Below the pieces are notes generated by a model. The model worked only from the letters and a program-made list of their open reading frames with translations, was not told where the DNA came from and did not search any database. A stretch of DNA of 10,864 nucleotides from the UHGV virus genome UHGV-1747598. The stretch is one strand, 5' to 3'. The DNA comes from a virus. Shown piece by piece: positions 1-10,864 of the stretch. Each line of letters opens with the position of its first letter. Position 1 is the first letter of the stretch. The translations under genes were made by a program, and so were the position numbers.

Positions 1-1274
1 ACACTAACTTTTTTCATACTGATTGGCAGACGCGCCAGCTACTGATAGCAGGCGGTGCGTTGCTGGCAATGACTGCAACGATTGGCTCGTTGTCGCTGGT
101 TATTGGGGTGCTTTACGGAAAGCTGGCCACCCTGCGTCTTGGTTTTGACATTCTTACCCGGTCAATGAATGTCGTCAGGGTGTTGCCTGCGCTGTGGGGA
201 ATGCTGACGGGTTCCGTTTCTTTGCTGGGAGGCGCTATCGGGGCGCTGTTCAGTCCGGTTGGATTGATTGCTGCTGCGTTTGTGGCTGCGGCGGTTCTCA
301 TCTGGAAATACTGGGAACCCATTAAGGCGTTTTATGCCGGGGTGTTCAACGGGATTATGGAAAGGCTGACCCCGTTGCGCGAAACCTTTGAACGGTTTGG
401 TCCTGTTTTTGACGCAATCGGAAGCGGGATCAGCCAGGTGTTTAACTGGTTTAAATCGCTGCTGTCACCGATGGAGTCCAGCAAGGAAACGCTGGATAAA
501 TGTACCAGTGCTGGCGAGATATTCGGTAACGTTCTTGGCGGTGCGTTACAACTTGTTCTGACACCTGCAAAAATGCTACTGGATACGCTGGCGTGGATAC
601 TTGAAAAACTCGGTGTGCTTCCGGATGAAGCGGAAAGGGCGAGAAAGAAAATCGAAGACGCACAGCGTGCGGCCATTCTTCAGGACAAGGTTGCTCTGTT
701 TCAGGGAGACATTGCGAAAATCAATCCGCCGAAGTCTGCGGAAAATGGCAATGGCACCGGAGGCGATAAACCCAAAGACAACAAACCGCTCACAGACAGC
801 AATACCGGCACGCTACGCAGACTCAGCAAAATTGCTGATAACACAGGTAAGCTGGTTGATGAGACAAAAAAACGTATTGGCCCCGGCGATATTGTCTTTA
901 AGAACCTGCCCCGCGCACTTGCTGTTCGTGGGGAGTGGCAGGAGCGGAAGATTGCACAGGTCAGTAAGCCTGCCCCCGCAATGAATATCACCCCCGTGGT
1001 CCCGGCTCCGCTGCCTCCGGCGCTGGTCCCTGTTGTTGCGGCCAGCTCCCGCCCGGTGGCGGAGGCCATACGATCTCCAGTGGCATCAGTTCCTGTAACT
1101 TCCCGTAACCGGGAGCCTGTTGCCTCCGGATTTGGTGGTGAAATTCATGTTCATCTGCATAACGTTGTTACGCAGAATCCCCGCGAACTGGCGAAACTGG
1201 TCGGTGAAATGGTCAGGGCAGAAATGGAACGGCGCGCCCGTGCCGGGCGTGGCAGTTTTTACGATAAAGATTGA
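1..1274 (+). CDS. Tail tape measure protein, C-terminal portion (5' end lies outside the window)
   Basis: The frame is open from the window start (codons in register with nt 3) to the stop at 1272-1274, so the listed start at 60 is not the real start. The product has hydrophobic Gly/Ala-rich segments and a Pro/Ala/Val-rich low-complexity C-terminus. It sits directly upstream of a gpU-like gene (GAGGAG RBS at 1274-1279), the position of gpT in P2-type tail modules. Confidence 0.55.
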   Translation, partial: TNFFHTDWQTRQLLIAGGALLAMTATIGSLSLVIGVLYGKLATLRLGFDILTRSMNVVRVLPALWGMLTGSVSLLGGAIGALFSPVGLIAAAFVAAAVLIWKYWEPIKAFYAGVFNGIMERLTPLRETFERFGPVFDAIGSGISQVFNWFKSLLSPMESSKETLDKCTSAGEIFGNVLGGALQLVLTPAKMLLDTLAWILEKLGVLPDEAERARKKIEDAQRAAILQDKVALFQGDIAKINPPKSAENGNGTGGDKPKDNKPLTDSNTGTLRRLSKIADNTGKLVDETKKRIGPGDIVFKNLPRALAVRGEWQERKIAQVSKPAPAMNITPVVPAPLPPALVPVVAASSRPVAEAIRSPVASVPVTSRNREPVASGFGGEIHVHLHNVVTQNPRELAKLVGEMVRAEMERRARAGRGSFYDKD

Positions 1275-1280
1275 GGAGTC

Positions 1281-1775
1281 ATGGCCATGATGATGATCTA
1301 CGGCATGTTTGTTTTTGAGCTGCGTACGTTGCCGCATCAGCAGTTACAGCAAAACAAAAGCTGGCGGCATGTGAAAAATGAACGCGTTAACCGTTCAGCA
1401 AGCTGGCAGTATATCGGGGCAGGCGATGATCGCATCGTTCTTTCTGGTGTGCTTTATCCTGAAATTACAGGTGGCGAAGTGTCGCTTTCGTTGCTGACCA
1501 CGCAGGCATATACAGGACGCCCCTGGCCTCTGATTGATGGTGTCGGGCAGATTTACGGCATGTATGTCCTGACCGGAACGAATACGACCCGCTCCGAGTT
1601 TGATCGCTACGGTAAGGCGAAAAAGATAGAATTTTCACTGACTCTTGAACGCTGTGATGAGGATTTGCGGGAGCGCCTGCAATCCTCATCGTTCAGTGAT
1701 ATGCTGTCCGGCTTCAAAGATAAGGTCACATCATCCCTTAACAGCGCGGCCAGCTCCGTTAAAGGGCTGTTTTGA
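1281..1775 (+). CDS. Phage tail protein U-like (P2 gpU family)
   Basis: 164-aa ORF with ATG at 1281 preceded by GAGGAG. The N-terminal GMFVFE..TLPHQ motif and the GVLYPE.TGG motif match my recollection of the P2 gpU family. Size and position after the tape measure fit. Confidence 0.7.
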   Translation: MAMMMIYGMFVFELRTLPHQQLQQNKSWRHVKNERVNRSASWQYIGAGDDRIVLSGVLYPEITGGEVSLSLLTTQAYTGRPWPLIDGVGQIYGMYVLTGTNTTRSEFDRYGKAKKIEFSLTLERCDEDLRERLQSSSFSDMLSGFKDKVTSSLNSAASSVKGLF

Positions 1776-1782
1776 TTAACGC

Positions 1783-1812
1783 AAAACCGCTAATGGTCAG
1801 ATTAGCGGTTTT
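1783..1812. terminator. Bidirectional intrinsic terminator hairpin between convergent gpU and invertase genes
   Basis: Perfect inverted repeat AAAACCGCTAAT (1783-1794), loop GGTCAG, ATTAGCGGTTTT (1801-1812), followed by a T-rich tract on + and with the A-run giving a U-run on the - transcript. It lies 8 nt after the gpU stop and overlaps the invertase stop codon (1802-1804). Confidence 0.55.
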
Positions 1813-2401
1813 CATTTTCCTGAGTCTGCCTGGTTGTTTCTTCAGCCTGTATATCGCCTACAGGGTGATAACGATAAATCGTCGATATGCCGATGTCGTA
1901 AATGATCGCCAGTTGTTTCCTGTCATGACCGTTTTTAATCAGCCTCGCTATTTGCTCGTGTTGTTCTTTTGTCAACTTCGGGCGACGTCCGCCAATGCGT
2001 CCTTGTGCGCGTGCTGCTGCCAGCCCGGCCAGTGTACGCTCTACAATTAATTCACGTTCCATTTCGGCTAAAGCCCCCATGACGTGAAAAAAGAAACGCC
2101 CCATGGGTGTTGATGTGTCAATGCTGTCCGTCAGACTACGGAAATTAACACCTTTTTCCCGCAATTCCTCAATAAGCGTGATCAGGTGTTTCATACTTCT
2201 GCCCAGTCTGTCCAGCTTCCAGACAACCAGCGTATCTCCTTCTGATAGCGTTCTGAGCAGTTTTTTCAATCCCGGTCTGGCTGATTTCGTTCCGCTGATT
2301 TTATCTTCAAAAATCAGTTCACATCCTGCGCAGTTCAGTGCATTGCGTTGTAAATCCGTGTTCTGGTCATTTGTTGACACACGAATATAGCCAATTTGCA
2401 T
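1802..2401 (-). CDS. Serine DNA invertase, Hin/Gin/Pin/Cin (Din) family
   Basis: The 199-aa product begins MQIGYIRVSTNDQNTDLQRNAL and contains VVWKLDRLGRS, SLTDSIDTS, GRFFFHVMGALAEMERELIVERT and a C-terminal HTH (GISTIYRY), all hallmark motifs I recall from Hin/Gin. The true start is the ATG at 2401-2399, preceded by AGAGGA; the 264-aa ORF in the track is read-through into the upstream crossover-site region. Confidence 0.9.
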   Translation of the reverse strand: MQIGYIRVSTNDQNTDLQRNALNCAGCELIFEDKISGTKSARPGLKKLLRTLSEGDTLVVWKLDRLGRSMKHLITLIEELREKGVNFRSLTDSIDTSTPMGRFFFHVMGALAEMERELIVERTLAGLAAARAQGRIGGRRPKLTKEQHEQIARLIKNGHDRKQLAIIYDIGISTIYRYHPVGDIQAEETTRQTQENENR

Positions 2402-2455
2402 AAAAAACATCCTCTTTGTTTCGTGAAAAATACATAGTTGGTATAGGTAGGGATA

Positions 2456-2481
2456 AAGACGAAAACGTTGGTTTGGGGGAA
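2456..2481 (+). other. Invertase crossover site 1 (hix/gix-like, 12-2-12)
   Basis: AAGACGAAAACG-TT-GGTTTGGGGGAA. It resembles the gix/hix architecture (..AAACC-NN-GGTTT..) as I recall it. It lies about 55 bp upstream of the invertase start, at the 5' boundary of cassette A. Confidence 0.6.
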
Positions 2482-2901
2482 GGCTCTGCGCTGCCCGTTG
2501 GTGTGCCCGTTCCATGGCCCTCAGCCACGCTGCCAACGGGGTGGCTGAAATGTAACGGCGCAGCATTTTCTTCTGAAATGTACCCCAATCTGGCAAAGGC
2601 CTACCCCGCCAATAAATTACCGGATTTACGGGGCGAATTTATTCGTGGCTGGGATGATGGACGTGGTGTGGACAATGGGAGAGCATTATTAAGCAGCCAA
2701 GAGGCTACAAATTTTTCTCAGCGTGCCGGAAATATAGGCGATGGTGCGGGCCACGCAATTAATTTTCATGATGGCATAGTCGGAAATCAGCCAGGATTTT
2801 CACGATTTAATTTCACCAGTAACTCTGTAGGCGATGGTATAAATTATGTTGCTGTCAGGCCGCGAAATATCGCATTTAATTACATCGTAAGGGCAGCATG
2901 A
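2470..2901 (+). CDS. Silent alternative tail-fiber C-terminal cassette A (no start codon of its own)
   Basis: The translation GSALPVGVPVPWPSATLPTGWLKCNGAAFSSEMYPNLAKAYPANKLPDLRGEFIRGWDDGRGVD...RPRNIAFNYIVRAA is near-identical at both ends to the C-terminus of the H tail fiber, with a different central block. It begins at crossover site 1 and ends with TGA at 2899-2901. Confidence 0.7.
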   Translation, partial: GLGEGSALPVGVPVPWPSATLPTGWLKCNGAAFSSEMYPNLAKAYPANKLPDLRGEFIRGWDDGRGVDNGRALLSSQEATNFSQRAGNIGDGAGHAINFHDGIVGNQPGFSRFNFTSNSVGDGINYVAVRPRNIAFNYIVRAA

Positions 2902-2920
2902 AAACGTTGGTTTGGGGAAA
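2895..2920 (+). other. Invertase crossover site 2 (hix/gix-like)
   Basis: AGCATGAAAACG-TT-GGTTTGGGGAAA. The stop codon of cassette A (TGA) is embedded in its left half-site. Same orientation as site 1. Confidence 0.6.
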
Positions 2921-3388
2921 GGCTCGGCGCTGCCCGTTGGTGTACCTGTTCCGTGGCCCTCAGCTACTCCACCAACGGGCTGGCTGAAATGCAACGGCGC
3001 AGCATTTTCTTCTGAAAAGTATCCCAAACTGGCACAGGCTTACCCCGCGAACAAATTACCGGATTTACGCGGTGAATTTATCCGTGGCTGGGATGATGGG
3101 CGAGGAATTGATGCAGCACGCGCTTTATTGAGCATTCAAACCGGGATGTTGGAAAAACACCGCCATATTGTTGTAGCTAACGATAGATATGACACAAAGG
3201 ATGAATGGGAGTTGGCCACGATTTTCAAAAAAACATATACACAAGGCAGGGGGCTTGATGCCACAAATACAGGAGGGAGTTTGATTCCATCACCAACGCT
3301 TCATTCACGAGGAAGTATTGGTAACACAGGTGGTAGTGAAACCCGCCCCCGCAATATTGCATTTAACTATATCGTGAGGGCGTCTTAG
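2909..3388 (+). CDS. Silent alternative tail-fiber C-terminal cassette B
   Basis: It has the same conserved 5' block (GSALPVGVPVPWPSATPPTGWLKCNGAAFSSEKYPKLAQAYPANKLPDLRGEFIRGWDDGRGID) and the same 3' motif (RPRNIAFNYIVRAS), with a distinct central region. Stop TAG at 3386-3388. Confidence 0.7.
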   Translation, partial: GLGKGSALPVGVPVPWPSATPPTGWLKCNGAAFSSEKYPKLAQAYPANKLPDLRGEFIRGWDDGRGIDAARALLSIQTGMLEKHRHIVVANDRYDTKDEWELATIFKKTYTQGRGLDATNTGGSLIPSPTLHSRGSIGNTGGSETRPRNIAFNYIVRAS

Positions 3389-3394
3389 TTATAT

Positions 3395-4006
3395 TCAACT
3401 GGCTGCTGCCAGTGGTATTTCCGGCCAGTTGATATCTGGTGCCATGTTTATATCCATTGCGTTCAGTGCGTCTATATAATCCAGCACGGCGTTAAGCCGG
3501 GTGGTTTCTGCCTGCGTCAACTTCCGCCCGGCCTGCAACTTCAACTGAATCAGACTTACGGAAGCCATTGCCGCATCAGCCAGTGACTGGCGCTTGGTTT
3601 CTGCCGCTTCTACTGCGGCACCATGTTGTGCCTCAGTATCTGTCACCCATTTTTCACCATCCCATTTATCGTATGGTGTTAACGGGGCGATAGTGGTTGT
3701 ATTTTTCGGGTAGTCACCCAGCGTCGTGATTTCTTCGGTGTTTCCCGTGTCAGTGTTATAGACGGTTTCACCACGATGGTCTGGCGCATACTCCCATGAA
3801 CTTAAATTCTCCGAACGGCGGATAGCATAGCCCGCTTTATGTGCGCCCGGGGCATCTAAACAGGAATTTGCCGGAATACCGACACCCACAGCAAGATATT
3901 CAGTTGATTCGGAAATATATTCCCGTGTTTCACCATCATAGTTATAAACGACGATGTTTCCTGCCTGTACGGCAATAAGGTCATCATTTAATATCGCGTT
4001 ATTCAT
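3395..4006 (-). CDS. Tail fiber assembly protein (Tfa chaperone)
   Basis: The 203-aa product (MNNAILNDDL...VYNYDGETREYIS...YAPDHRGETVYNTDTG...PYDKWDGEKWVTDTEAQH...) looks like the Tfa proteins encoded next to tail fiber genes in lambdoid, Mu and P2-like phages. Its ATG overlaps the stop of cassette C as TAATG. Confidence 0.8.
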   Translation of the reverse strand: MNNAILNDDLIAVQAGNIVVYNYDGETREYISESTEYLAVGVGIPANSCLDAPGAHKAGYAIRRSENLSSWEYAPDHRGETVYNTDTGNTEEITTLGDYPKNTTTIAPLTPYDKWDGEKWVTDTEAQHGAAVEAAETKRQSLADAAMASVSLIQLKLQAGRKLTQAETTRLNAVLDYIDALNAMDINMAPDINWPEIPLAAAS

Positions 4007-4467
4007 TATGCGGTTCTCACAATATAATTGAAGGCAATATTGCGTGGGCGGCTTTCATTCCCATCTGAGGATTCCGTTCTGTATTGACTGGTAAATCTAC
4101 CGTTAATTGCACCTTGCCAGACGGCGTTATCTGTCGACAACAGACTATCCCCTCCTTTGTCATTTGGCACCAGTACCGTGTTATCCCACGCGTCCCATGA
4201 CCGAATATTATGATAATGACTTCCTGTTAACCACCCCTGCATGCTTAAGATGCCCCTTCTGGCATCCACCCCGCGCCCATCATCCCAGCCACGGATAAAT
4301 TCACCGCGTAAATCCGGTAATTTATTGGTGGGGTAGGCTTTTGCCAGTTTGGGGTACATTTCAGAAGAAAATGCTGCACCGTTACATTTCAGCCAGCCCG
4401 TTGGTGGTGTTGCTGAGGGCCACGGAACGGGCACACCAACGGGCAGTGCAGAACCTTCTCCTAAACC
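4006..4467 (-). CDS. Silent alternative tail-fiber C-terminal cassette C, translationally coupled to tfa
   Basis: Translation NVGLGEGSALPVGVPVPWPSATPPTGWLKCNGAAFSSEMYPKLAKAYPTNKLPDLRGEFIRGWDDGRGVD...RPRNIAFNYIVRTA. It follows the stop of the active cassette and crossover site 3, and has no independent start. Confidence 0.7.
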   Translation of the reverse strand, partial: GLGEGSALPVGVPVPWPSATPPTGWLKCNGAAFSSEMYPKLAKAYPTNKLPDLRGEFIRGWDDGRGVDARRGILSMQGWLTGSHYHNIRSWDAWDNTVLVPNDKGGDSLLSTDNAVWQGAINGRFTSQYRTESSDGNESRPRNIAFNYIVRTA

Positions 4468-4481
4468 AACGTTTTCATGCT
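4456..4481 (-). other. Invertase crossover site 3 (hix/gix-like)
   Basis: On the - strand this reads AGCATGAAAACG-TT-GGTTTAGGAGAA. The stop codon of the active H gene (TGA, 4477-4475) is embedded in its left half. It is inverted relative to sites 1 and 2. Confidence 0.6.
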
Positions 4482-6115
4482 GCCCTTACGATGTAATTAA
4501 ATGCAACGTTGCGAGGGCGAGTTTCTGTACCTACATTTCCACTAATTTTACCAAACCGTTTTACATTACGAGAGCTAATGGCTCGTAGTGAGGAAGGCAC
4601 CTTTAAACCGGGTTCGTCTGTTTTAACTATTCCCCCGTCCCCGTATGTAGCCAGTATTCCAGGGTTTACTCCTTCCCGTGTACTTCCCGCGGCAAGTCCA
4701 TCCCCGGTCCATAATTCCATATAGTGTGCATGATCCAAAATTGTGTGTGGCTGCCAATTAAGCAAAGCGCGGCCAGCATCCACCCCGCGCCCATCATCCC
4801 AGCCGCGAATAAATTCTCCCCGTAAATCCGGTAATTTATTGGCGGGGTAGGCCTTTGCCAGATTGGGGTACATTTCAGAAGAAAATGCTGCTCCGTTACA
4901 TTTCAGCCAGCCCGTTGGTGGTGTGGCTGAGGGCCATGGAACAGGCACACCAACGGGCAGTGCAGAGCCTCCCCCCAAACCAAGGTAATCAAGAACTCCC
5001 TGAGTGCTGGTTTTACCAAGAATGGCACGTCCAACACTTGTCAACGCGGTTAACGCGGCACGATCTGCCCCTGTAAAATATGGGAGTTTATCTGCTGATG
5101 TAGCAAGCTCCGCCAGCGCCGTCAGGGTGGCATCCTTCGGTTGCTTACCCGCAAGCGCGTTAGTCATGGTGGTCGCAAAATTCGGGTCATTGCCCAGCGC
5201 CGCAGCCAGTTCGTTCAGCGTGTTCAGTGCATCAGGTGACGAATCTACAAGTGCGGCAATCGCGGCCATAACGAAAGCCGTGCTTGCGATCTGGGTACTA
5301 TTAGCCCCCTGTGGCGCTGTTGGTGTTGTTGGCGTTCCGGTCAGTGCCGGGCTGTTTAATGGTGCTTTCTTGTTCGTTTCATCCATTACCGCCTTAACAG
5401 CTTTTGGTGTCGCTGCCAGCGTTTCAGACGTGCTGTTCGTGGCGCTACTGAGCTGAACAATCCCTTTTTGTGTAGTGGTGGCGTTCCGGGCGGTATATTT
5501 CCCGTTAGCCAGGTCATATGCAGCCTTAACCGCTTTCGGTGTTGCGGCCAGTGTTTCTGATTCACTGTTAATTGCACTGCTTAACTGAGTAAAACCTTTT
5601 ACGGTCAGCGAGGCGTCCGGGTGACGTCGTGATTGTTCGTGCTCTGATATTTTATCATCCACATATTTGCGGGTTGCCAGAACCACAGACGGGTCGATTT
5701 TCAGCGTGATGGCTTCGGTGTTCGTGACAACCAGAATCATGCGGATAGTCTGGGTGCGTCCACTGCCTTCCTGCAACTGCGGTTTGTACGTTTCCGGGCA
5801 GTTTGCCACCGCAATGAGTACACCTTCATCATCATAAAGACCAATCTCACGGATCCAGAATCCTCCCTCGTTTTCAGGGATGATTTGCTCCGCAATAATC
5901 TGGCTCTGATTGTTAGGGTCAACACTCAGAAGATTCAGCGGTGCAATGCGTTTCTGGTTAATCAGTTTTGTTTGTGCAGGGTCTGGTGTTGGTAACACAC
6001 CATTTGCATCACCAACGGCCATTTGCGTCAGATTCAGCTTACTGCCGAGCATCGTCGCGTTAGCCAGTCGTGCCGCGCCCTGATTAGTCAGAATGGCGTA
6101 GTATTTCACTGTCAT
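4475..6115 (-). CDS. Tail fiber protein H (P2 gpH-like constant N-terminal region fused to the currently active C-terminal cassette D, about 4475-4982)
   Basis: The 546-aa product starts MTVKYYAILTNQGAARLANA...MAVGDANG and contains EHEQSRRHPDASLTVKGFTQLSSA and the twice-repeated SETLAATPKAVKA motif, which match my memory of P2 gpH. The C-terminal 166 aa carry the shared cassette blocks. Its ATG overlaps the gpI stop as ATGA. Confidence 0.85.
   Translation of the reverse strand: MTVKYYAILTNQGAARLANATMLGSKLNLTQMAVGDANGVLPTPDPAQTKLINQKRIAPLNLLSVDPNNQSQIIAEQIIPENEGGFWIREIGLYDDEGVLIAVANCPETYKPQLQEGSGRTQTIRMILVVTNTEAITLKIDPSVVLATRKYVDDKISEHEQSRRHPDASLTVKGFTQLSSAINSESETLAATPKAVKAAYDLANGKYTARNATTTQKGIVQLSSATNSTSETLAATPKAVKAVMDETNKKAPLNSPALTGTPTTPTAPQGANSTQIASTAFVMAAIAALVDSSPDALNTLNELAAALGNDPNFATTMTNALAGKQPKDATLTALAELATSADKLPYFTGADRAALTALTSVGRAILGKTSTQGVLDYLGLGGGSALPVGVPVPWPSATPPTGWLKCNGAAFSSEMYPNLAKAYPANKLPDLRGEFIRGWDDGRGVDAGRALLNWQPHTILDHAHYMELWTGDGLAAGSTREGVNPGILATYGDGGIVKTDEPGLKVPSSLRAISSRNVKRFGKISGNVGTETRPRNVAFNYIVRAA
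4970..4995 (-). other. Invertase crossover site 4 (hix/gix-like), inside the tail fiber gene at the constant/variable junction
   Basis: On the - strand this reads TTCTTGATTACC-TT-GGTTTGGGGGGA, encoding ...LDYLGLGG.... The central TT occupies the same codon positions as in cassette sites 1-3. Confidence 0.6.
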
Positions 6116-6720
6116 GCGTTTACTCTCAGATTATCAATTAAATGAATGGCCGGGGCAGGGAAATAATCCCCTTCGACAATAATGGACTCCGGGGTGTAGG
6201 GATAAACCGTCAGGGCATCGCCGTGATAGCATCCCGTACCAACGAAAATCTTTCCGTTCACACTCAGGCTGATCGCCAGCCCCGTCAGATGGCGACTTAC
6301 TGGTTTTGCATCCGCAATAAGGCGCTCAAGTTCCTGATACATTTCATCGGTGATGCCCTGATCAAGTACTCCGACAACAATGCGAAATGTTCCTGGCTCC
6401 TCGTTGAGTTGCCACCACTCCTTTACTTCAATCAGGTAGCCGAGAGGCTCCACGGCTCTTCGCAGTGCGCTGATGGTCCCTTTGTGTCGGTGTATCAGCC
6501 ATGCATCACGAATCACCTGTCGCTTTGTCTCTTCCGGCCAGTTGCGATCCCAGCGGTCAACGGAAAACGCCCAGGCGAGATAAGGCAGCAGATGCGCCGG
6601 GCATGTGTCCGGCGACCACAGCGTGTTGAGGTCTACCGGAATGTCTGTAATGCGTGTTCCGACGGCTTCGGCGCAACGCATGAAATTGCTGGCTGATGGT
6701 GGTAACAACGAATTACTCAT
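6112..6720 (-). CDS. Baseplate/tail protein I (P2 gpI-like)
   Basis: Product contains WSPDTCPAHLLPYLAWAFSVDRWD, HKGTISALRRAVEPLGY and ADAKPVSRHL, as I recall for gpI. The likely start is the ATG at 6720, which overlaps the gpJ stop (ATGAGTAA), rather than the longer ORF listed from 6753. Confidence 0.8.
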   Translation of the reverse strand: MSNSLLPPSASNFMRCAEAVGTRITDIPVDLNTLWSPDTCPAHLLPYLAWAFSVDRWDRNWPEETKRQVIRDAWLIHRHKGTISALRRAVEPLGYLIEVKEWWQLNEEPGTFRIVVGVLDQGITDEMYQELERLIADAKPVSRHLTGLAISLSVNGKIFVGTGCYHGDALTVYPYTPESIIVEGDYFPAPAIHLIDNLRVNA

Positions 6721-7609
6721 TGCGCCCACCTTCGCTGATGGTGAATGACTCACAGCACGCCGCCTGTATGTCGCTGATGGCCATATTCTGTGTGGGTTCG
6801 ATTATCTCCACGCGTTGCACACCGTGCACATGCAGTGCGGCAGCAATGGCGGACAACGCCACGTCCTGACCGATAAGCCCCTGTTCAGCCAGCCACTTCC
6901 TGAACGACGATTCAGCCGCGGCCAGAATAGGTTCGGATTCCGGGCCGGGGTAAAAGTACAGTTTTGCATTCAGCCGCCATGTCACGATTCTGGCGCTCTG
7001 TACGGTCAGGCGGTCGGCCACCGGGCGGGTATCCTCTGCATTCAGAACGGCGCGAACGGTATTAAGCAACGCCTCCGTTGCTGTGCCGTCGCCTTCAGTG
7101 GACAGAATGGAAACCGTCACACAGGCCGGAGACGGGCTGATGGCCCGCGCATCACGCACCAGACCGCTGGCGCTGCGTGCAAAATACTCGTATGCGCCTG
7201 ACGGGCCAGCAACACTCAGGCCGTCGTACGCCCGCTGCGCCCGCAATCTCAGCGAGGTGTCGCTCTCCATCACCGCGTCGGTGGTATCCGTTGCCGGAGT
7301 GATAACCAGGCGCTTTGTGTTCATATTGCCCGCGAGGTTGTCCAGGTTTGTCCCTGAACCGTGGCTTAACATGCAGGCGCGTGCGCCCTCGTTAACCCGC
7401 TGGCGTAACAGCATTTCACGAAAAGACATGGTTTGAGCGATAACGTTCAGGGGTTCCGATTCCAGCTCCAGCGCGGCGGAGACGGCTTCACGCTGTTCGG
7501 CAGGATAGGACGCAATCATCATGGCCTTTGTGTCAGCCAGAATTGCTTCAAAATCAGGCTCCGCGATGATGGCGGGTTCCGGTAACTGGGAAAGGTCAAC
7601 GGCAGGCAT
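6713..7609 (-). CDS. Baseplate assembly protein J (P2 gpJ-like)
   Basis: 298 aa, the size of gpJ, with its position between the W and I homologs conserved. Confidence 0.8.
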   Translation of the reverse strand: MPAVDLSQLPEPAIIAEPDFEAILADTKAMMIASYPAEQREAVSAALELESEPLNVIAQTMSFREMLLRQRVNEGARACMLSHGSGTNLDNLAGNMNTKRLVITPATDTTDAVMESDTSLRLRAQRAYDGLSVAGPSGAYEYFARSASGLVRDARAISPSPACVTVSILSTEGDGTATEALLNTVRAVLNAEDTRPVADRLTVQSARIVTWRLNAKLYFYPGPESEPILAAAESSFRKWLAEQGLIGQDVALSAIAAALHVHGVQRVEIIEPTQNMAISDIQAACCESFTISEGGRNE

Positions 7610-7612
7610 GAT

Positions 7613-7963
7613 TTACTCCCTCAGCGTGATGGTTAATTCAACATTCTGCATGGTCTGCATGACAGTGCCCGACAGAGTCACCCCGGCGCGGCCTCCTGCC
7701 TTCCAGACAACGTCGATGGCGTCCAGGGCAATGCGGGGTTCCCATCGTGTCAGCGCAATCACGGCAGCACTCATGCATTGCAGACGAGTTGTGTTATTCA
7801 TGGGTTCGTCAATCAAATCAGGCACAAGGCTGCCATATTCCCGTCGCATAACCCGGCTTGCCAGCGGGGTGATCAGGATGTCCCTGACTGACTGTTTCAG
7901 GTGCTCCATATCGTTCAGGTTTCCCGTCCCGTCCGGATTCATTCCTGTGTAGCGGGTTGTCAC
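7613..7963 (-). CDS. Baseplate wedge protein W (GPW/gp25 family)
   Basis: 116 aa with the conserved order V-W-J. Its start overlaps the gpV stop by 4 nt. Confidence 0.8.
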   Translation of the reverse strand: MTTRYTGMNPDGTGNLNDMEHLKQSVRDILITPLASRVMRREYGSLVPDLIDEPMNNTTRLQCMSAAVIALTRWEPRIALDAIDVVWKAGGRAGVTLSGTVMQTMQNVELTITLRE

Positions 7964-8541
7964 TGCGGGCCTCCTGTCGAATCGCTGCCGCCTTTCACGC
8001 CACCGTGTTTATGCGTATGCACTGTGATGCCGTTTGAGGTGAAGTTGCCGCCGCTGTGCGTGATATTGCCGCTCATCTTTCCTCCTTTTGTGACGTCAAG
8101 CGTCGCCGTTCTCAGAAGGTTTGTGCATTCCACGACGGGCGTGTCCAGTTTCACGCTGACGGATGCCTGTAAAGTGGCCGTTTTCATGCCGCTGGCGCTC
8201 AGTGCGCCAGCGTCTGCGTCGTAGCGGAACACCGCGCCGTCCGGCGCGCTGATCACGATTTCTTTCAGGCTTTTGCCGGGGGCCGGACTGGCATCACTCC
8301 ACAGGCTGCCAATTATCATGGCGGTTTCCGGGTTGCCGCCAATGCAGGCAATTACCACCTGTTCGCCTGGTGATGGCGGCAGCCACACATTGAAGGCTCC
8401 CGCGCGCGTGGTGTTCCAGCGCAGCCAGCCTGTTTCCAGTTCGCCGCTGCGAACGCGCACGCGCCAGGACTTCTCATCAACTTCAGAGATGATCCCGGTG
8501 CGGATGATATTGCTCAGCAGTCGCATGAGTTCTGCGCTCAC
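7960..8541 (-). CDS. Baseplate spike/assembly protein V (P2 gpV-like)
   Basis: 193-aa product with an N-terminal OB-fold-like region and a Gly-rich C-terminus (GGKMSGNITHSGGNFTSNGITVHTHKHGG), typical of gpV spikes. Its start overlaps the upstream gene stop by 4 nt. Confidence 0.8.
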   Translation of the reverse strand: MSAELMRLLSNIIRTGIISEVDEKSWRVRVRSGELETGWLRWNTTRAGAFNVWLPPSPGEQVVIACIGGNPETAMIIGSLWSDASPAPGKSLKEIVISAPDGAVFRYDADAGALSASGMKTATLQASVSVKLDTPVVECTNLLRTATLDVTKGGKMSGNITHSGGNFTSNGITVHTHKHGGVKGGSDSTGGPQ

Positions 8542-9173
8542 CGTACAGCCTCCGCAATCCGGCCCAGCACCGTGTTATAAATCAGGCGCTCATCTGCCTG
8601 GCTGATACCCAGCAGCTCACGTACCGGGTAATCGGTGAAAATGCCCGGCGCAACCTGATCGCGCTCACCGAACTGATGAACGCGGGCAATACGTGCGGCC
8701 ACGCCGCTGTAACCCACCGTCACACCGGAAGCATCTGCACGGGCTTTCAGGTAGCGGGCGGTGCGCAGTTTTACAAACATGGGGACGCGCTTTGTGCTGT
8801 CCTGGTTGATGCGCCGGGTGCGTATTTCCAGAAAACGGTCGATGTCATCCCGGTAAAACGTGCGGATATTGTTTTTATCCTCATCCCACCCGGTAATGGT
8901 TCGCCCGTATTTCCCCGTGTCGTGATGCCAGTTTTTCAGCGTGCGTGCTTCGTTATTCCAGATAAAGCGAATGCGCTCCTGTATCCGGGTTACGCGGCGT
9001 CTGCGTGGTGTCCATTCGGTCCCGTCCGGCGCTTTTTGTGATCGGATACGTGCCTGCTGGGCGCGACGTAAATCCTGTGCCAGCTTTCTGGCGATGTTAT
9101 TGATGGCCTGCTGATTCAGGCTGTCGCGGATAGCCTCAAAGGTTTCATCCACGCTGGTGAATGCCTTATCCAT
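8538..9173 (-). CDS. Phage virion morphogenesis / tail completion protein (gpS-like)
   Basis: It occupies the gpS position between the R and V homologs. The likely start is the ATG at 9173, which overlaps the gpR stop (ATGGATAA). The basic, Arg-rich product fits my impression of the virion-morphogenesis family. Confidence 0.55.
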   Translation of the reverse strand: MDKAFTSVDETFEAIRDSLNQQAINNIARKLAQDLRRAQQARIRSQKAPDGTEWTPRRRRVTRIQERIRFIWNNEARTLKNWHHDTGKYGRTITGWDEDKNNIRTFYRDDIDRFLEIRTRRINQDSTKRVPMFVKLRTARYLKARADASGVTVGYSGVAARIARVHQFGERDQVAPGIFTDYPVRELLGISQADERLIYNTVLGRIAEAVR

Positions 9174-9633
9174 CGCTTTCACCCCACGTCACATCCTGGA
9201 ATACATGCGACCAGTCGCCTTCGGAAGAGGGCAGACGGGGTTTTGGCTCCGGCAGGTGTTCTGCCTGCGGTGTGCCCTGACTGTTGCGCGTGATGCGAAC
9301 GCGTTCCCGCAGGGGGAGCGTAAACAGGAGATCGGCGCTGTCATCGTCATTGATAACGGCAGAAAATTTGATGTCCTGATTACGCTCCGGATTGAGCAAC
9401 AACTGTGGCTGATTTTCGGATAACCACGCCAGCAGCGGCAGCGTGAGGTCGTCCAGCTCTCCGGCGTAATCCATGACAAACATCACCATCTGATAGCGGT
9501 AAACAAACGAGGGCGCTTCTCCGGTCGTTTCAATGTTGCCGCTCTCCACGAAAATGGTGAATTTCTCGGGATTAGCCTGGCACCACCGACACCCATGAAG
9601 CATGGACTCTCGCAGACTGTTTGTCTTAAGCAT
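9166..9633 (-). CDS. Tail completion protein R (P2 gpR-like)
   Basis: 155 aa, the size of P2 gpR. N-terminal MLK..SLR and the central LPLLAWL.ENQP motif match my recollection of gpR. GGAGAG RBS upstream. Confidence 0.65.
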   Translation of the reverse strand: MLKTNSLRESMLHGCRWCQANPEKFTIFVESGNIETTGEAPSFVYRYQMVMFVMDYAGELDDLTLPLLAWLSENQPQLLLNPERNQDIKFSAVINDDDSADLLFTLPLRERVRITRNSQGTPQAEHLPEPKPRLPSSEGDWSHVFQDVTWGESDG

Positions 9634-9656
9634 CTGTTTTGCTCTCCTGCTCTTCC

Positions 9657-10864
9657 TTATGCTGCGGGATTATTGATTTCCAGCACCAGGCTGCCGATAT
9701 CGACGCCGTACGCGGCATTTTTAGTGATATCAGTTAACGTCAGCGCATTCAGCCCCAGTGTCAGACTGTCTTTTATGACCTGGAATGCCGGGCCAGCCAC
9801 TCCATTCAGTTTCGGAGTAACCGTGGCACTGCCGGCGGTGAACACCAGCTCCAGCGTCTGCCAGTCGTTACTGTAATTCCCGAACTCGCCCAACTTTGTG
9901 TTTCCTGCTTTCTTGTGATGCATCAGATTCAGTTTGCCGTCTGTGGTCTGGGTGAAGAACGACATCAGGAACGGGTTACCAGTCCCGGTCATCGCCACGA
10001 CGTCAGGTAACGCTACATCGGTATACAGATAAATTCCCAGACCGAACTGATTGTTGGTCAGTGCGCCTGACAGTCGAAACTTACAGCTCAGTCTGCCACC
10101 CCGTGTCAGCAGGGAGACTGCGTCATCCACCGGATGCATCAGGGACCAGGTTTTATTGCTCTGCTTGGTAACCTTAAACACACCATCTTCCAGCGCAACA
10201 CTGCCGCCGGTGATGGTCCAGCCCTGCGCAGCAGCCTCTCCGGCTGTCGGCAGCAGGGAGACTGTACGAACGGATGTGTCACCATCAGACGGCCCCGATG
10301 GCGTGTCGCCGCCGGGCGAGGGTTTAATCTCCGGTGCGGTACCGCTGATGAAGGCGCTGGTTCGACCAACTGCGTTCAGAATAGCGGTTGCCAGGCGATC
10401 CGAAATAATGCCCCTGCGCGCCCATGAACTGAAATGTGTCGGACGATTTGACGATACCCAATTACCATTACTACGGGATTGCGCGCCGTAATAACCTGCA
10501 TCAGCAATATCCGGGTCTTCTGCCGGTAAGTTGGTGGGCGTGTTGTTGCCGTTACCGTCGGTCATGAACGGCACAAAGAAAACGTTGTCGCTCTCCCTGT
10601 TTTTGTACGCGCCGTAGACGGAGTCATACTGTGTGCCGTATGTGTTTTTCCAGTAATACGTCGTGTCGCCACAAATCCACGGTACAACTGCAGCACTGCC
10701 GCCATGGCACTGCGCGTTAAATCCGGAAAGGTCAGTACGGAACTGCTTCAGCATGGCCGTGAACAGGTCCGGTTGCTGTGCGTAGGTGGCAGCGCTCATG
10801 TCAAATTCGCCCTGCATCCAGCACACCGCCAGCAACACATTTTTCGGGTTCTTCTGTAATGCAG
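9657..10864 (-). CDS. Partial CDS (N-terminus outside window): C-terminal part of a NanS-like sialate O-acetylesterase domain fused to a beta-rich, lectin-like C-terminal domain
   Basis: The frame is open to the window edge. Motifs CWMQGEFD, PWICGDTTYYWK, PAEDPD and HFSSWARRGIISDR resemble what I recall of E. coli NanS and prophage NanS-p esterases. The C-terminal ~200 aa are Gly/Thr-rich. It ends 23 bp upstream of gpR in the same orientation. Confidence 0.4.
   Translation of the reverse strand, partial: ALQKNPKNVLLAVCWMQGEFDMSAATYAQQPDLFTAMLKQFRTDLSGFNAQCHGGSAAVVPWICGDTTYYWKNTYGTQYDSVYGAYKNRESDNVFFVPFMTDGNGNNTPTNLPAEDPDIADAGYYGAQSRSNGNWVSSNRPTHFSSWARRGIISDRLATAILNAVGRTSAFISGTAPEIKPSPGGDTPSGPSDGDTSVRTVSLLPTAGEAAAQGWTITGGSVALEDGVFKVTKQSNKTWSLMHPVDDAVSLLTRGGRLSCKFRLSGALTNNQFGLGIYLYTDVALPDVVAMTGTGNPFLMSFFTQTTDGKLNLMHHKKAGNTKLGEFGNYSNDWQTLELVFTAGSATVTPKLNGVAGPAFQVIKDSLTLGLNALTLTDITKNAAYGVDIGSLVLEINNPAA

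What the first reader, a model, noticed from the sequence alone, without database searches (positions are those of the whole stretch)
1..10864. P2-type tail genes split into two convergent arms with the invertase module at the junction; gpD is not where P2 puts it
In P2 the genes R-S-V-W-J-I-H-G-FI-FII-E-T-U-D are collinear on one strand. Here T-U run on + and R-S-V-W-J-I-H run on -, converging on the invertase/cassette segment and a shared hairpin terminator. A single inversion of one block relative to P2 explains the layout. No gpD homolog follows U. Given the invertase and the repeats, a past large inversion is plausible. The arrangement also raises the question of whether this is an intact prophage or a tailocin-type cluster.
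Basis: partly seen in the sequence, partly recalled or inferred. Interest (0 to 1): 0.45.

Follow-up and report, generated by a model that had tools for sequence, protein, structure and literature searches.

The report
P88-type P2-like prophage tail region
The convergent tail-gene layout is real, but it is the normal, fixed gene order of a large, already sequenced group of P2-related enterobacterial phages (P88, PhiSM, SEN4), so it is ordinary rather than a recent rearrangement, an artefact or a tailocin.

Summary
T (partial) and U lie on +. Invertase, H, I, J, W, V, S and R lie on -. The arms meet at a 12-bp hairpin (1783-1812), and the window has no gpD.

The layout is not peculiar to this sequence. 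The window is 92-98% identical to phage P88 (genus Xuanwuvirus) and to E. coli prophages with the same order. There gpD lies just beyond FI, divergently transcribed and followed by ogr. Relative to P2, only the FI-FII-E-E'-T-U block, with its PF promoter region, is turned.

The T-U|invertase junction occurs in 617 of 5,426 complete E. coli genomes. None joins P88-type U to D collinearly. About 40 species-representative genomes across Enterobacterales share the layout, and it tracks U, FI, FII, R and S similarity. Pseudomonas and Herbaspirillum loci are collinear, so the inversion is old and derived.

Most convergent relatives, including phage SEN4, lack an invertase, and no crossover site or inverted repeat marks the far breakpoint. 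An invertase origin is therefore unsupported.

Relatives carry head, lysis, replication and integrase genes, and P88, PhiSM and SEN4 form plaques, so this is a prophage and not a tailocin. The junction holds a known kind of multi-inversion tail-fibre switch.

Low interest; already known.

The parts
1..1274 (+). 3' part of the tape-measure gene T (C-terminal 424 codons; the gene starts upstream of the window)
   Evidence: Frame open from base 3 to the stop at 1274. It aligns to the 935-aa PhageMin_Tail tape measure of relatives.
1281..1775 (+). gpU, last gene of the inverted F operon
   Evidence: Pfam Phage_P2_GpU 1.5e-38. 100% identical in protein to P88 U and about 44-46% to P2 U.
1783..1812 (.). 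Palindromic hairpin, a candidate bidirectional intrinsic terminator shared by the two converging units; its right arm contains the invertase stop codon
   Evidence: 12-bp perfect stem flanked by A4 and T4. Folding energy -15.6 and -16.9 kcal/mol, z -3.2 and -4.2. Identical in close relatives; unrelated GC-rich hairpins sit 0-20 nt after U in many (not all) distant convergent loci.
1802..2401 (-). Din-family serine DNA invertase (199 aa; ATG at 2399-2401)
   Evidence: Pfam Resolvase 3.2e-51 plus HTH_7 2.3e-12. Annotated as a 600-nt recombinase in AR_0013.
2462..2477 (+). Crossover-type site 1 (AAAACGTTGGTTTGGG) at the head of silent cassette 1
   Evidence: Four matches to AWWACSTTGGTTTRGG where 0.07 are expected. 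The homology among cassettes begins here. It resembles the AAACC-NN-GGTTT sites next to invertases in relatives.
2416..2901 (+). Silent tail-fibre C-terminal cassette 1 (Collar domain), inverted relative to H
   Evidence: Pfam Collar 3.2e-13; alignments.
2901..2916 (+). Crossover-type site 2
2912..3388 (+). Silent tail-fibre C-terminal cassette 2 (Collar domain)
   Evidence: Pfam Collar 1.7e-14. The same cassette is fused to H in L085 and L087-L089.
3395..4006 (-). Tail-fibre assembly protein (gpG analogue), the only one in the segment
   Evidence: Pfam Caudo_TAP 2.8e-32. The identical protein occurs in both orientations relative to H in other E. coli genomes.
4006..4434 (-). Silent cassette 3 (Collar domain), in the same orientation as H but not fused to it
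   Evidence: Pfam Collar 9.3e-15. It is fused to H in AR_0013, L086, L090 and L091.
4460..4475 (-). Crossover-type site 3; its 3' end (4475) is the last base of the H stop codon
4475..6115 (-). Tail fibre H (546 aa): constant N-terminal part plus the currently expressed cassette. Crossover-type site 4 lies at 4974-4989.
   Evidence: Pfam Phage_tail_fib 1.8e-62, Phage_fiber_2 and Collar; site.
6112..6753 (-). gpI (the likely start gives 202 aa, 6112-6720)
   Evidence: Pfam Tail_P2_I 2.3e-53. It is 202 aa in relatives.
6713..7609 (-). gpJ baseplate protein
   Evidence: Pfam Baseplate_J 2.6e-19; 54% identical to P2 J.
7613..7963 (-). gpW
   Evidence: Pfam GPW_gp25.
7960..8541 (-). gpV spike
   Evidence: Pfam Phage_base_V, Phage_spike and Apex.
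8538..9182 (-). gpS; overlaps V by 4 nt, so there is no PV/orf30 gap as in P2
   Evidence: Pfam Phage_tail_S 4e-27; ORF coordinates; P2 map.
9166..9633 (-). gpR tail completion protein
   Evidence: Pfam P2_Phage_GpR 1.4e-38.
9657..10864 (-). 3' two-thirds of a cargo gene (DUF1737 + SASA esterase + DUF6645) inserted between the lysis genes and R
   Evidence: Pfam DUF6645. The full-length AR_0013 homologue also has SASA and DUF1737. The frame is open to the window end. The gene is absent from P88 and from L085-L092 and 86% identical to DNA of Stx1a-converting phages.

Best explanation
The window is the tail region of a P88-type (Xuanwuvirus-like) P2-related temperate prophage of E. coli.

In this lineage the F operon (PF promoter region, FI, FII, E, E', T, U) was inverted in place in a common ancestor, and that state is fixed. 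This gives three consequences:
1. The long rightward late unit (head, lysis, R-S-V-W-J-I-H, fibre-assembly gene, and here the invertase) and the F operon now converge. They end at one palindromic hairpin between U and the invertase.
2. gpD and ogr stayed where P2 has them, but gpD now starts back-to-back with FI across a 157-bp spacer (measured in the P88-like group).
3. The junction between the two arms is a cargo and variation hotspot. In this phage it holds a Din-family invertase and four alternative tail-fibre C-terminal cassettes, which are shuffled by site-specific inversion.

Shown here: the gene identities, strands, hairpin and sites; conservation of the layout in phages and in hundreds of genomes; absence of the collinear state; and cassette permutations between genomes.

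Inferred: that the hairpin terminates both units; that R to H is one transcription unit; and that D is transcribed from the FI-D spacer, possibly using the same Ogr-type dyad as PF.
For: **Identity of the element**
- The window is 92.8% identical to phage P88 and up to 97.9% identical to E. coli prophages (95% coverage in AR_0013), with the same order.
- P88, AR_0013 and eight further E. coli loci all show sheath-tube-E-E'-T-U converging on invertase/fibre genes, with Phage_GPD divergent from the sheath gene and followed by Ogr_Delta. Head, lysis, replication and integrase genes are also present.

**Comparison with the P2 order**
- P2 and an invertase-bearing Peduovirus are collinear: H-G-(invertase)-FI...U-D-ogr.
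- In a scan of one genome per species, about 40 loci from Salmonella, Serratia, Enterobacter, Kosakonia, Pantoea, Mixta, Symbiopectobacterium, Edwardsiella, Morganella, Providencia, Photorhabdus, Xenorhabdus, Pectobacterium, Hafnia and Citrobacter are convergent. Their U is 52-97% identical to the window's.
- About 40 loci with 50% or lower U identity are collinear, including Pseudomonas and Herbaspirillum.
- Clustering of U, FI, FII, R and S splits exactly by layout.
- Both arms and D are similarly diverged from P2, at 25-61%.

**Fixation**
- The junction occurs in 617 of 5,426 E. coli genomes.
- None of 1,413 genomes carrying P88-type U or D joins them collinearly.

**Hairpin**.

**FI-D spacer**
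- It carries one TGT-N12-ACA or TGT-N12-AGA dyad, 74-88 nt from the FI ATG.
- In P2 the PF activator site is centred 83 nt from the FI ATG. P2's PP and PO share one activator site.

**Cassette shuffling**: with experimental precedent in PMC4272514.
Against: - The window ends inside T and inside the cargo gene, so the flanks of this particular copy are not seen. Its completeness is inferred from relatives. At least one relative (AR_0013) is decaying, with an internal stop in the portal gene and a split D.
- In-place inversion cannot be strictly separated from replacement of the F module by a reversed homologous module.
- Monophyly rests on UPGMA of tblastn segments from loci chosen by U similarity. 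D, J, V, W and I did not split cleanly at the top level.
- The T-run after the hairpin is good on + (TTTTCATTTTCC) and weaker on - (UUUUGCGUU).
- The distance from the dyad to the D start is 69-76 nt in the P88, SEN4 and Serratia-type groups. By my reading of the sequences it looks shorter (about 47 nt) in Xenorhabdus loci, which does not fit a fixed bidirectional promoter.
- I found no paper that states the inversion explicitly.
Confidence: 0.9

Rival explanations
1. The large inversion was made by, or is still switched by, the adjacent DNA invertase acting on a crossover site at each end of the FI-U block.
For: An invertase with four bona fide-looking crossover sites sits exactly at one breakpoint. 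Din invertases invert DNA between inverted sites (established knowledge).
Against: - Only about 6 of about 43 convergent loci have an invertase, and SEN4 has the layout without one.
- There is no site-like sequence at the FI/D junction in P88 or AR_0013.
- No inverted repeat links the two breakpoints.
- None of 1,413 E. coli genomes shows the collinear state.
- The layout follows protein phylogeny rather than presence of the invertase.
Confidence: 0.04
2. The cluster is a headless phage-tail bacteriocin (tailocin) rather than a prophage.
For: Only tail genes, an invertase and one cargo gene are visible in the window. Related P2-type tail clusters have been domesticated as tailocins in Pectobacterium, Xenorhabdus, Kosakonia and Dickeya (PMC13195805, PMC13280938, PMC6629978, PMC10719855).
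Against: - Every close relative examined (95-99% identical parts) has capsid, scaffold, terminase, portal, holin/endolysin, replication and integrase genes around the same tail region.
- P88, PhiSM and SEN4 are plaque-forming phages (PMC6456863, PMC5261728).
Confidence: 0.04
3. The convergent order is an assembly or scaffolding artefact in this window.
For: Repeated cassettes and inverted repeats of 220-280 nt are the kind of sequence that breaks short-read assemblies.
Against: The U|invertase junction itself contains no long repeat. It is found contiguous in 617 complete E. coli genomes and in independently sequenced phage genomes.
Confidence: 0.01
4. The layout arose by modular exchange: an F-operon module from another P2-like phage was inserted in reverse orientation, rather than by in-place inversion.
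For: P2-like phages are mosaic, and the junctions coincide with operon boundaries, where such exchanges occur.
Against: - Inverted-block proteins (42-46% to P2) and flanking proteins, including D (49%), are about equally far from P2.
- R and S on the other arm cluster by layout just as U, FI and FII do.
- The FI-side distance of the PF dyad is kept as in P2.
Confidence: 0.08

Closest known systems
Escherichia phage P88 (Xuanwuvirus P88, Peduoviridae; NC_026014 / KP063541) and P88-like E. coli prophages; Citrobacter phage PhiSM
   Same: 92-98% nucleotide identity outside the fibre cassettes. The gene order and strands are identical: R S V W J I H, fibre-assembly gene(s), invertase, then the hairpin, with U T E' E FII FI converging from the other side and D-ogr beyond FI. 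The U protein is identical.
   Different: - P88 has a different, longer H with two cassettes, two assembly proteins and gix-type sites TTCCTGTAAACCGAGGTTTTAGATAA. The window has four Collar-type cassettes and one assembly protein.
- The window carries an esterase-like cargo gene before R that P88 lacks.
Bacteriophage P2 (Peduovirus P2, NC_001895) and invertase-bearing Peduovirus magyaro (NC_041848)
   Same: The same set of tail proteins by Pfam, at 25-61% identity. D is followed by ogr. The PF-type dyad lies about 80 nt before FI. The space after the fibre genes is a cargo or invertase slot (Z/fun in P2, invertase in magyaro).
   Different: - P2 is collinear, with U overlapping D. Here the FI-U block is reversed and D is separated from U.
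- P2 has a separate PV promoter and orf30 between S and V. Here S overlaps V.
- In P2 the F operon includes D. Here D must be expressed on its own.
Salmonella phage SEN4 (Senquatrovirus)
   Same: Same convergent layout, with D divergent from FI across a 157-bp spacer carrying a perfect TGT-N12-ACA dyad. U is 53% identical.
   Different: SEN4 has no invertase and no cassettes. A macro-domain gene lies between H and the assembly gene. It belongs to a different genus.
Multiple-inversion tail-fibre systems: Min of p15B, Cin of P1, Gin of Mu, Pin of e14, and the three-repeat 'shufflon' in a P2-like prophage of EPEC E2348/69 (PMC4272514)
   Same: A serine invertase lies next to alternative fibre C-terminal cassettes, each headed by an AAACC-NN-GGTTT-like site. 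The same cassettes occur in different orders and orientations in different genomes.
   Different: There are four sites and only one assembly protein. Because that gene lies between the + and - sites, it flips with every inversion. Mu, P1 and P88 carry one assembly gene per orientation.

Membership tests
P2-like (Peduoviridae) contractile tail module | Homologues of gpR, S, V, W, J, I, H, T and U | tested here: met
   Family-specific Pfam hits above curated cut-offs for R, S, V, W, J, I, H and U. T is identified by alignment to relatives' tape measure.
P2-like (Peduoviridae) contractile tail module | gpD (baseplate hub), FI sheath and FII tube present in the same element | not testable with these tools
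   They lie outside the window. They are present in every close relative (Phage_GPD).
Genus Peduovirus / canonical P2 gene order | Collinear R-S-V-W-J-I-H-G-FI-FII-E-T-U-D on one strand | tested here: not met
   T and U are on the strand opposite R through H, and no D follows U.
Xuanwuvirus (P88-like phages) | High nucleotide identity to P88 with the same gene order, the FI-U block reversed and D facing FI | tested here: met
   92.8% identity over the 58% of the window outside the fibre cassettes and cargo gene; identical order and hairpin.
Xuanwuvirus (P88-like phages) | Genus-level identity over the whole genome | not testable with these tools
   Only 10.9 kb of the element is available.
Din-family DNA inversion system (Gin/Cin/Pin/Hin/Min) | Serine recombinase of about 190-200 aa with a C-terminal HTH | tested here: met
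   Resolvase 3.2e-51 plus HTH_7 2.3e-12; 199 aa; N-terminus MQIGYIRVSTNDQ.
Din-family DNA inversion system (Gin/Cin/Pin/Hin/Min) | Crossover sites in inverted orientation at the boundary between constant and variable fibre parts | tested here: met
   Four sites, two on each strand, each at the head of a cassette; 0.07 expected by chance.
Din-family DNA inversion system (Gin/Cin/Pin/Hin/Min) | The segment actually inverts | tested here: met
   Cassettes 99% identical, and the assembly gene, occur in permuted and flipped arrangements in L002 and L085-L092, as expected from inversion between sites. This is a comparison between genomes, not a single-culture test.
Din-family DNA inversion system (Gin/Cin/Pin/Hin/Min) | Fis-dependent enhancer inside the invertase gene | not tested
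   No tool or search was applied.
R-type tailocin | A tail cluster without head, packaging, replication or integration genes | tested here: not met
   Tested on relatives only. All close relatives have these genes. The window's own flanks are unseen.
Bidirectional intrinsic terminator | A stable hairpin followed by a U-run on both strands, between convergent genes | tested here: inconclusive
   The hairpin is strong on both strands. The U-run is good on + and short on -. Hairpins at the equivalent position in many distant relatives support a function. There are no transcript data.

The most novel reading that the evidence does not exclude
The inversion rewired late transcription in two ways.

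1. It placed the single Ogr-type dyad of PF between FI and D. That dyad may now serve a second bidirectional late promoter, like P2's PP/PO pair, and so drive D and ogr.

2. In the one-assembly-gene cassette variants such as this window, the convergent layout may let read-through from the F operon, past the hairpin, express the assembly gene when the segment is flipped away from the H operon.
Probability: 0.2. Interest if true: 0.3.

Novelty: already known. Interest (0 to 1): 0.13.

Why it matters
The practical value is for annotation. A convergent T-U versus R-H arrangement, with gpD 'missing' after U, should not be flagged as a rearrangement, a misassembly or a tailocin in enterobacterial genomes. 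It is the signature order of the P88/SEN4 branch of P2-like phages, which is present in over a tenth of complete E. coli genomes.

There is also a modest biological point. A 5.6-kb operon inversion was fixed early in a successful phage lineage. It uncoupled gpD from the F operon, so D must have its own late expression signal. That is directly testable in P88.

Tried and rejected
- **Source contig by exact protein look-up.** The H protein is not on record. The assembly protein gave eight informative relatives but not the identical locus.
- **Crossover-type sites at the far breakpoint.** None in P88. AR_0013 has only chance-level three-mismatch hits elsewhere.
- **Inverted repeats linking the two breakpoints.** Only short chance-level pairs inside genes.
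- **TGT-N12-ACA in the window.** One match at 2417-2434, against 2.9 expected. It is conserved only in near-identical relatives and absent upstream of other invertases, so I rejected it as a signal.
- **Rfam and tRNA scans of the window.** Nothing found.
- **PADLOC scan of the cargo protein, invertase and assembly protein.** No defence-family hit.
- **Literature.** I found no paper that comments on the FI-U inversion in P88, SEN4, PhiSM or Peduoviridae in general. The carotovoricin paper lists sheath, tube, tape measure and GpU before baseplate and fibre genes, without the convergent split. The Pectobacterium loci L030 and L032 are therefore probably P2-like prophages and not carotovoricin. 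I did not pursue this.
- **First phylogeny script.** It timed out and was replaced by UPGMA on identity matrices.

Full report
**1. What is in the window**

ORF listing and Pfam scans give the following on the + strand:
- The 3' 1.27 kb of the tape-measure gene T. The frame is open from the window edge.
- gpU at 1281-1775.

On the - strand they give:
- A 199-aa serine invertase (1802-2401).
- A lambda-Tfa-type fibre assembly gene (3395-4006).
- Tail fibre H (4475-6115).
- I, J, W, V, S and R (6112-9633).
- The 3' two-thirds of a cargo gene that runs off the window end (9657-10864).

The + strand ORFs antisense to the invertase have no family hit.

U stops at 1773-1775 and the invertase stops at 1802-1804. 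Between them lies a perfect 12-bp palindromic hairpin flanked by A4 and T4 (1783-1812). Its folding energy is -15.6 kcal/mol on + and -16.9 kcal/mol on -, and no shuffle of 200 folds as well. No gpD homologue is in the window.

**2. The same layout elsewhere**

Megablast against phage genomes finds phage P88 (Xuanwuvirus, Peduoviridae) and its relatives at 92-95% identity over everything except the fibre cassettes and the cargo gene. Against complete E. coli genomes the best hit is a prophage of strain AR_0013, at 97.9% identity over 95% of the window.

The annotated maps of P88 and AR_0013 and the called genes of eight further E. coli loci that encode the identical assembly protein all show one order:
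- Head genes, lysis genes, then R S V W J I H, the assembly gene(s) and the invertase on one strand.
- U, T, E', E, tube and sheath on the other strand, converging on the invertase.
- A Phage_GPD gene divergent from the sheath gene, followed by an Ogr/Delta zinc-finger gene and hok.

P2 itself, and an invertase-carrying Peduovirus, have H-G-(invertase)-FI-FII-E-E'-T-U-D-ogr on one strand, with U and D overlapping.

The difference is exactly one inversion of the block from the PF promoter region to U. D and ogr have not moved.

**3. How widespread and how fixed it is**

- A 1.5-kb probe across the T-U|invertase junction is found contiguous in 617 of 5,426 complete E. coli genomes.
- A synthetic collinear junction (U 3' end joined to the P88-type D 5' end) finds its halves in 1,413 genomes but never joined.
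- A scan of one genome per bacterial species with a U alignment returned 80 loci. I mapped 26 P2 and P88 reference proteins onto them with tblastn.
- About 40 of those loci have the convergent layout, with D 6.0-6.4 kb upstream of U in most on the other strand. Their U is 52-97% identical to the window's. They come from Salmonella, Serratia, Enterobacter, Kosakonia, Trabulsiella, Pantoea, Mixta, Izhakiella, Symbiopectobacterium, Edwardsiella, Morganella, Providencia, Rouxiella, Photorhabdus, Xenorhabdus, Pectobacterium, Dryocola, Hafnia and Citrobacter.
- About 40 loci with U at 50% identity or lower are collinear, with D beginning right after U. These include Yersinia, Escherichia, Raoultella, Pseudomonas and Herbaspirillum.
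- Two-cluster UPGMA of U, FI, FII, R and S reproduces the layout classes without exception.
- Proteins inside and outside the block, including D, are about equally distant from P2.
- Phage SEN4, from a second ICTV genus (Senquatrovirus), has the convergent layout too.

Because the non-enterobacterial loci in the scan are collinear, the convergent order is the derived state. It is old and fixed in a large enterobacterial branch of P2-like phages.

**4. Was the invertase responsible?**

This is unlikely, for five reasons:
- Only about six of the convergent loci have an invertase near the junction.
- SEN4 has none.
- The site pattern that picks out the window's four crossover sites (0.07 expected by chance) has no copy at the FI/D junction of P88 or AR_0013.
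- No inverted repeat connects the two breakpoints.
- The block is never seen in the other orientation.

The invertase is better read as one of several cargoes that occupy the slot after the fibre genes. P2 has Z/fun there.

**5. Prophage or tailocin?**

All close relatives have portal, terminase, scaffold, capsid, head-completion, holin, endolysin, spanin, replication and integrase genes around this tail region. AR_0013's copy lies next to a tRNA-Leu gene.

PhiSM and SEN4 form plaques, and P88 is an induced lytic phage (PMC6456863, PMC5261728, PMC5285337). The window's own flanks are unseen, so its intactness is an inference. AR_0013's copy shows decay, with an internal stop in the portal gene and a split D.

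**6. How the layout probably works**

*Shown.*
- S overlaps V, so there is no room for a P2-type PV promoter.
- The two arms end at one hairpin.
- In many of the distant convergent loci, unrelated GC-rich hairpins sit 0-20 nt after U. Collinear loci have none there, because D starts at once.

*Inferred.*
- R to H plus the assembly gene (and the invertase) form the tail end of the long PO-type unit.
- The hairpin terminates both units.

*The FI-D spacer.* This spacer is 157 bp in the P88 group and in SEN4. It carries a single central dyad:
- It is a perfect TGT-N12-ACA in the Photorhabdus, most Xenorhabdus, SEN4-type, Pectobacterium, Morganella and Rouxiella loci.
- It is TGT-N12-AGA in the P88 and Serratia/Enterobacter groups.
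- It lies 74-88 nt from the FI start.

In P2 the annotated PF activator site is centred 83 nt from the FI start, so the promoter moved with the block. P2's PP and PO are annotated as sharing one activator site.

D therefore needs its own signal, and a bidirectional use of this dyad is an attractive guess. However, the distance to the D start is not uniform across lineages: about 69-76 nt in several groups, and seemingly about 47 nt in Xenorhabdus by my reading of the sequences. I rate this idea as possible only.

**7. The junction cargo**

Four copies of a 220-280-nt conserved stretch are present, two on each strand. It encodes the Collar-domain start of the fibre C-terminus. Each copy is headed by AWWACSTTGGTTTRGG and followed by a different 70-110-residue variable part and a conserved RPRN(I/V)AFNYIVR end.

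The stop codon of one cassette lies inside or next to the site of the next. The sites resemble the AAACC-NN-GGTTT sites next to invertases in P88 and other relatives.

The same cassettes, 99% identical, and the single assembly gene occur in different orders and orientations in AR_0013 and L085-L092, just as inversions between + and - sites predict. Multi-repeat inversion 'shufflons' in P2-like prophages of E. coli have been shown experimentally (PMC4272514).

One feature is unusual. Only one assembly gene is present, and it lies between the opposed sites, so every inversion flips it. Several genomes are in the state where it points away from H.

**8. Verdict**

The single-inversion reading is right, and both the invertase link and the tailocin alternative are not supported. 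The layout is the standard order of an already sequenced and classified phage group.

I found no paper that spells out the inversion, but it is plain in the deposited annotations. Interest is low.

Noticed in passing
window 9657-10864 (-); full length in L002 28676-30556: A cargo gene lies between the lysis genes and R. It encodes DUF1737 + SASA (sialate O-acetylesterase fold) + DUF6645, 626 aa in AR_0013. From my own knowledge this architecture resembles the NanS-p esterases of Stx prophages. It is 86% identical in DNA to Stx1a-converting lambdoid phages and is absent from P88 and from L085-L092, so it looks like a moron moving between unrelated phage types. It has no PADLOC hit.
   Followed up: partly
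window 2416-4989; L002, L085-L092: The four-cassette tail-fibre inversion system has a single assembly gene (3395-4006) lying between the opposed crossover sites, so it flips with every inversion. In L085 and L087-L089 it points away from H while H is fused to cassette 2. Either those fibre variants need no assembly protein, or the gene is expressed from the other side.
   Followed up: partly
window 2417-2434 (+): The only perfect TGT-N12-ACA dyad in the window lies between the invertase start codon and the first crossover site. It is at chance level (2.9 expected) and conserved only in near-identical relatives.
   Followed up: yes
window 8538-8541: S and V overlap by 4 nt. P2 has about 940 bp here, holding orf30 and the PV promoter. 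The baseplate genes therefore probably have no promoter of their own in this lineage.
   Followed up: partly
L006 (NZ_JBQPOM010000071.1, labelled Vagococcus sp. WN89Y): A 226-kb contig labelled as a Firmicute carries a P88-type tail region whose U is 97% identical to the window's, with the same layout. This probably reflects contamination or mislabelling of the assembly.
   Followed up: no
L002 14905-16013 and 37276-38322: In the closest complete relative (E. coli AR_0013), gpD is split into a 267-aa ORF plus a pseudogene fragment, and the portal gene has an internal stop. That copy is decaying.
   Followed up: no
L085-L092, region beyond D/ogr/hok: The cargo next to D-ogr-hok varies between otherwise near-identical prophages: a RES-domain protein, a PIN_12 protein, or a Com zinc ribbon plus N6/N4 methyltransferase. 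This is a second moron hotspot.
   Followed up: no
L093 (SEN4) 13549-14373: SEN4 has a macro-domain protein gene between the tail fibre gene and the assembly gene, at the same convergent junction.
   Followed up: no
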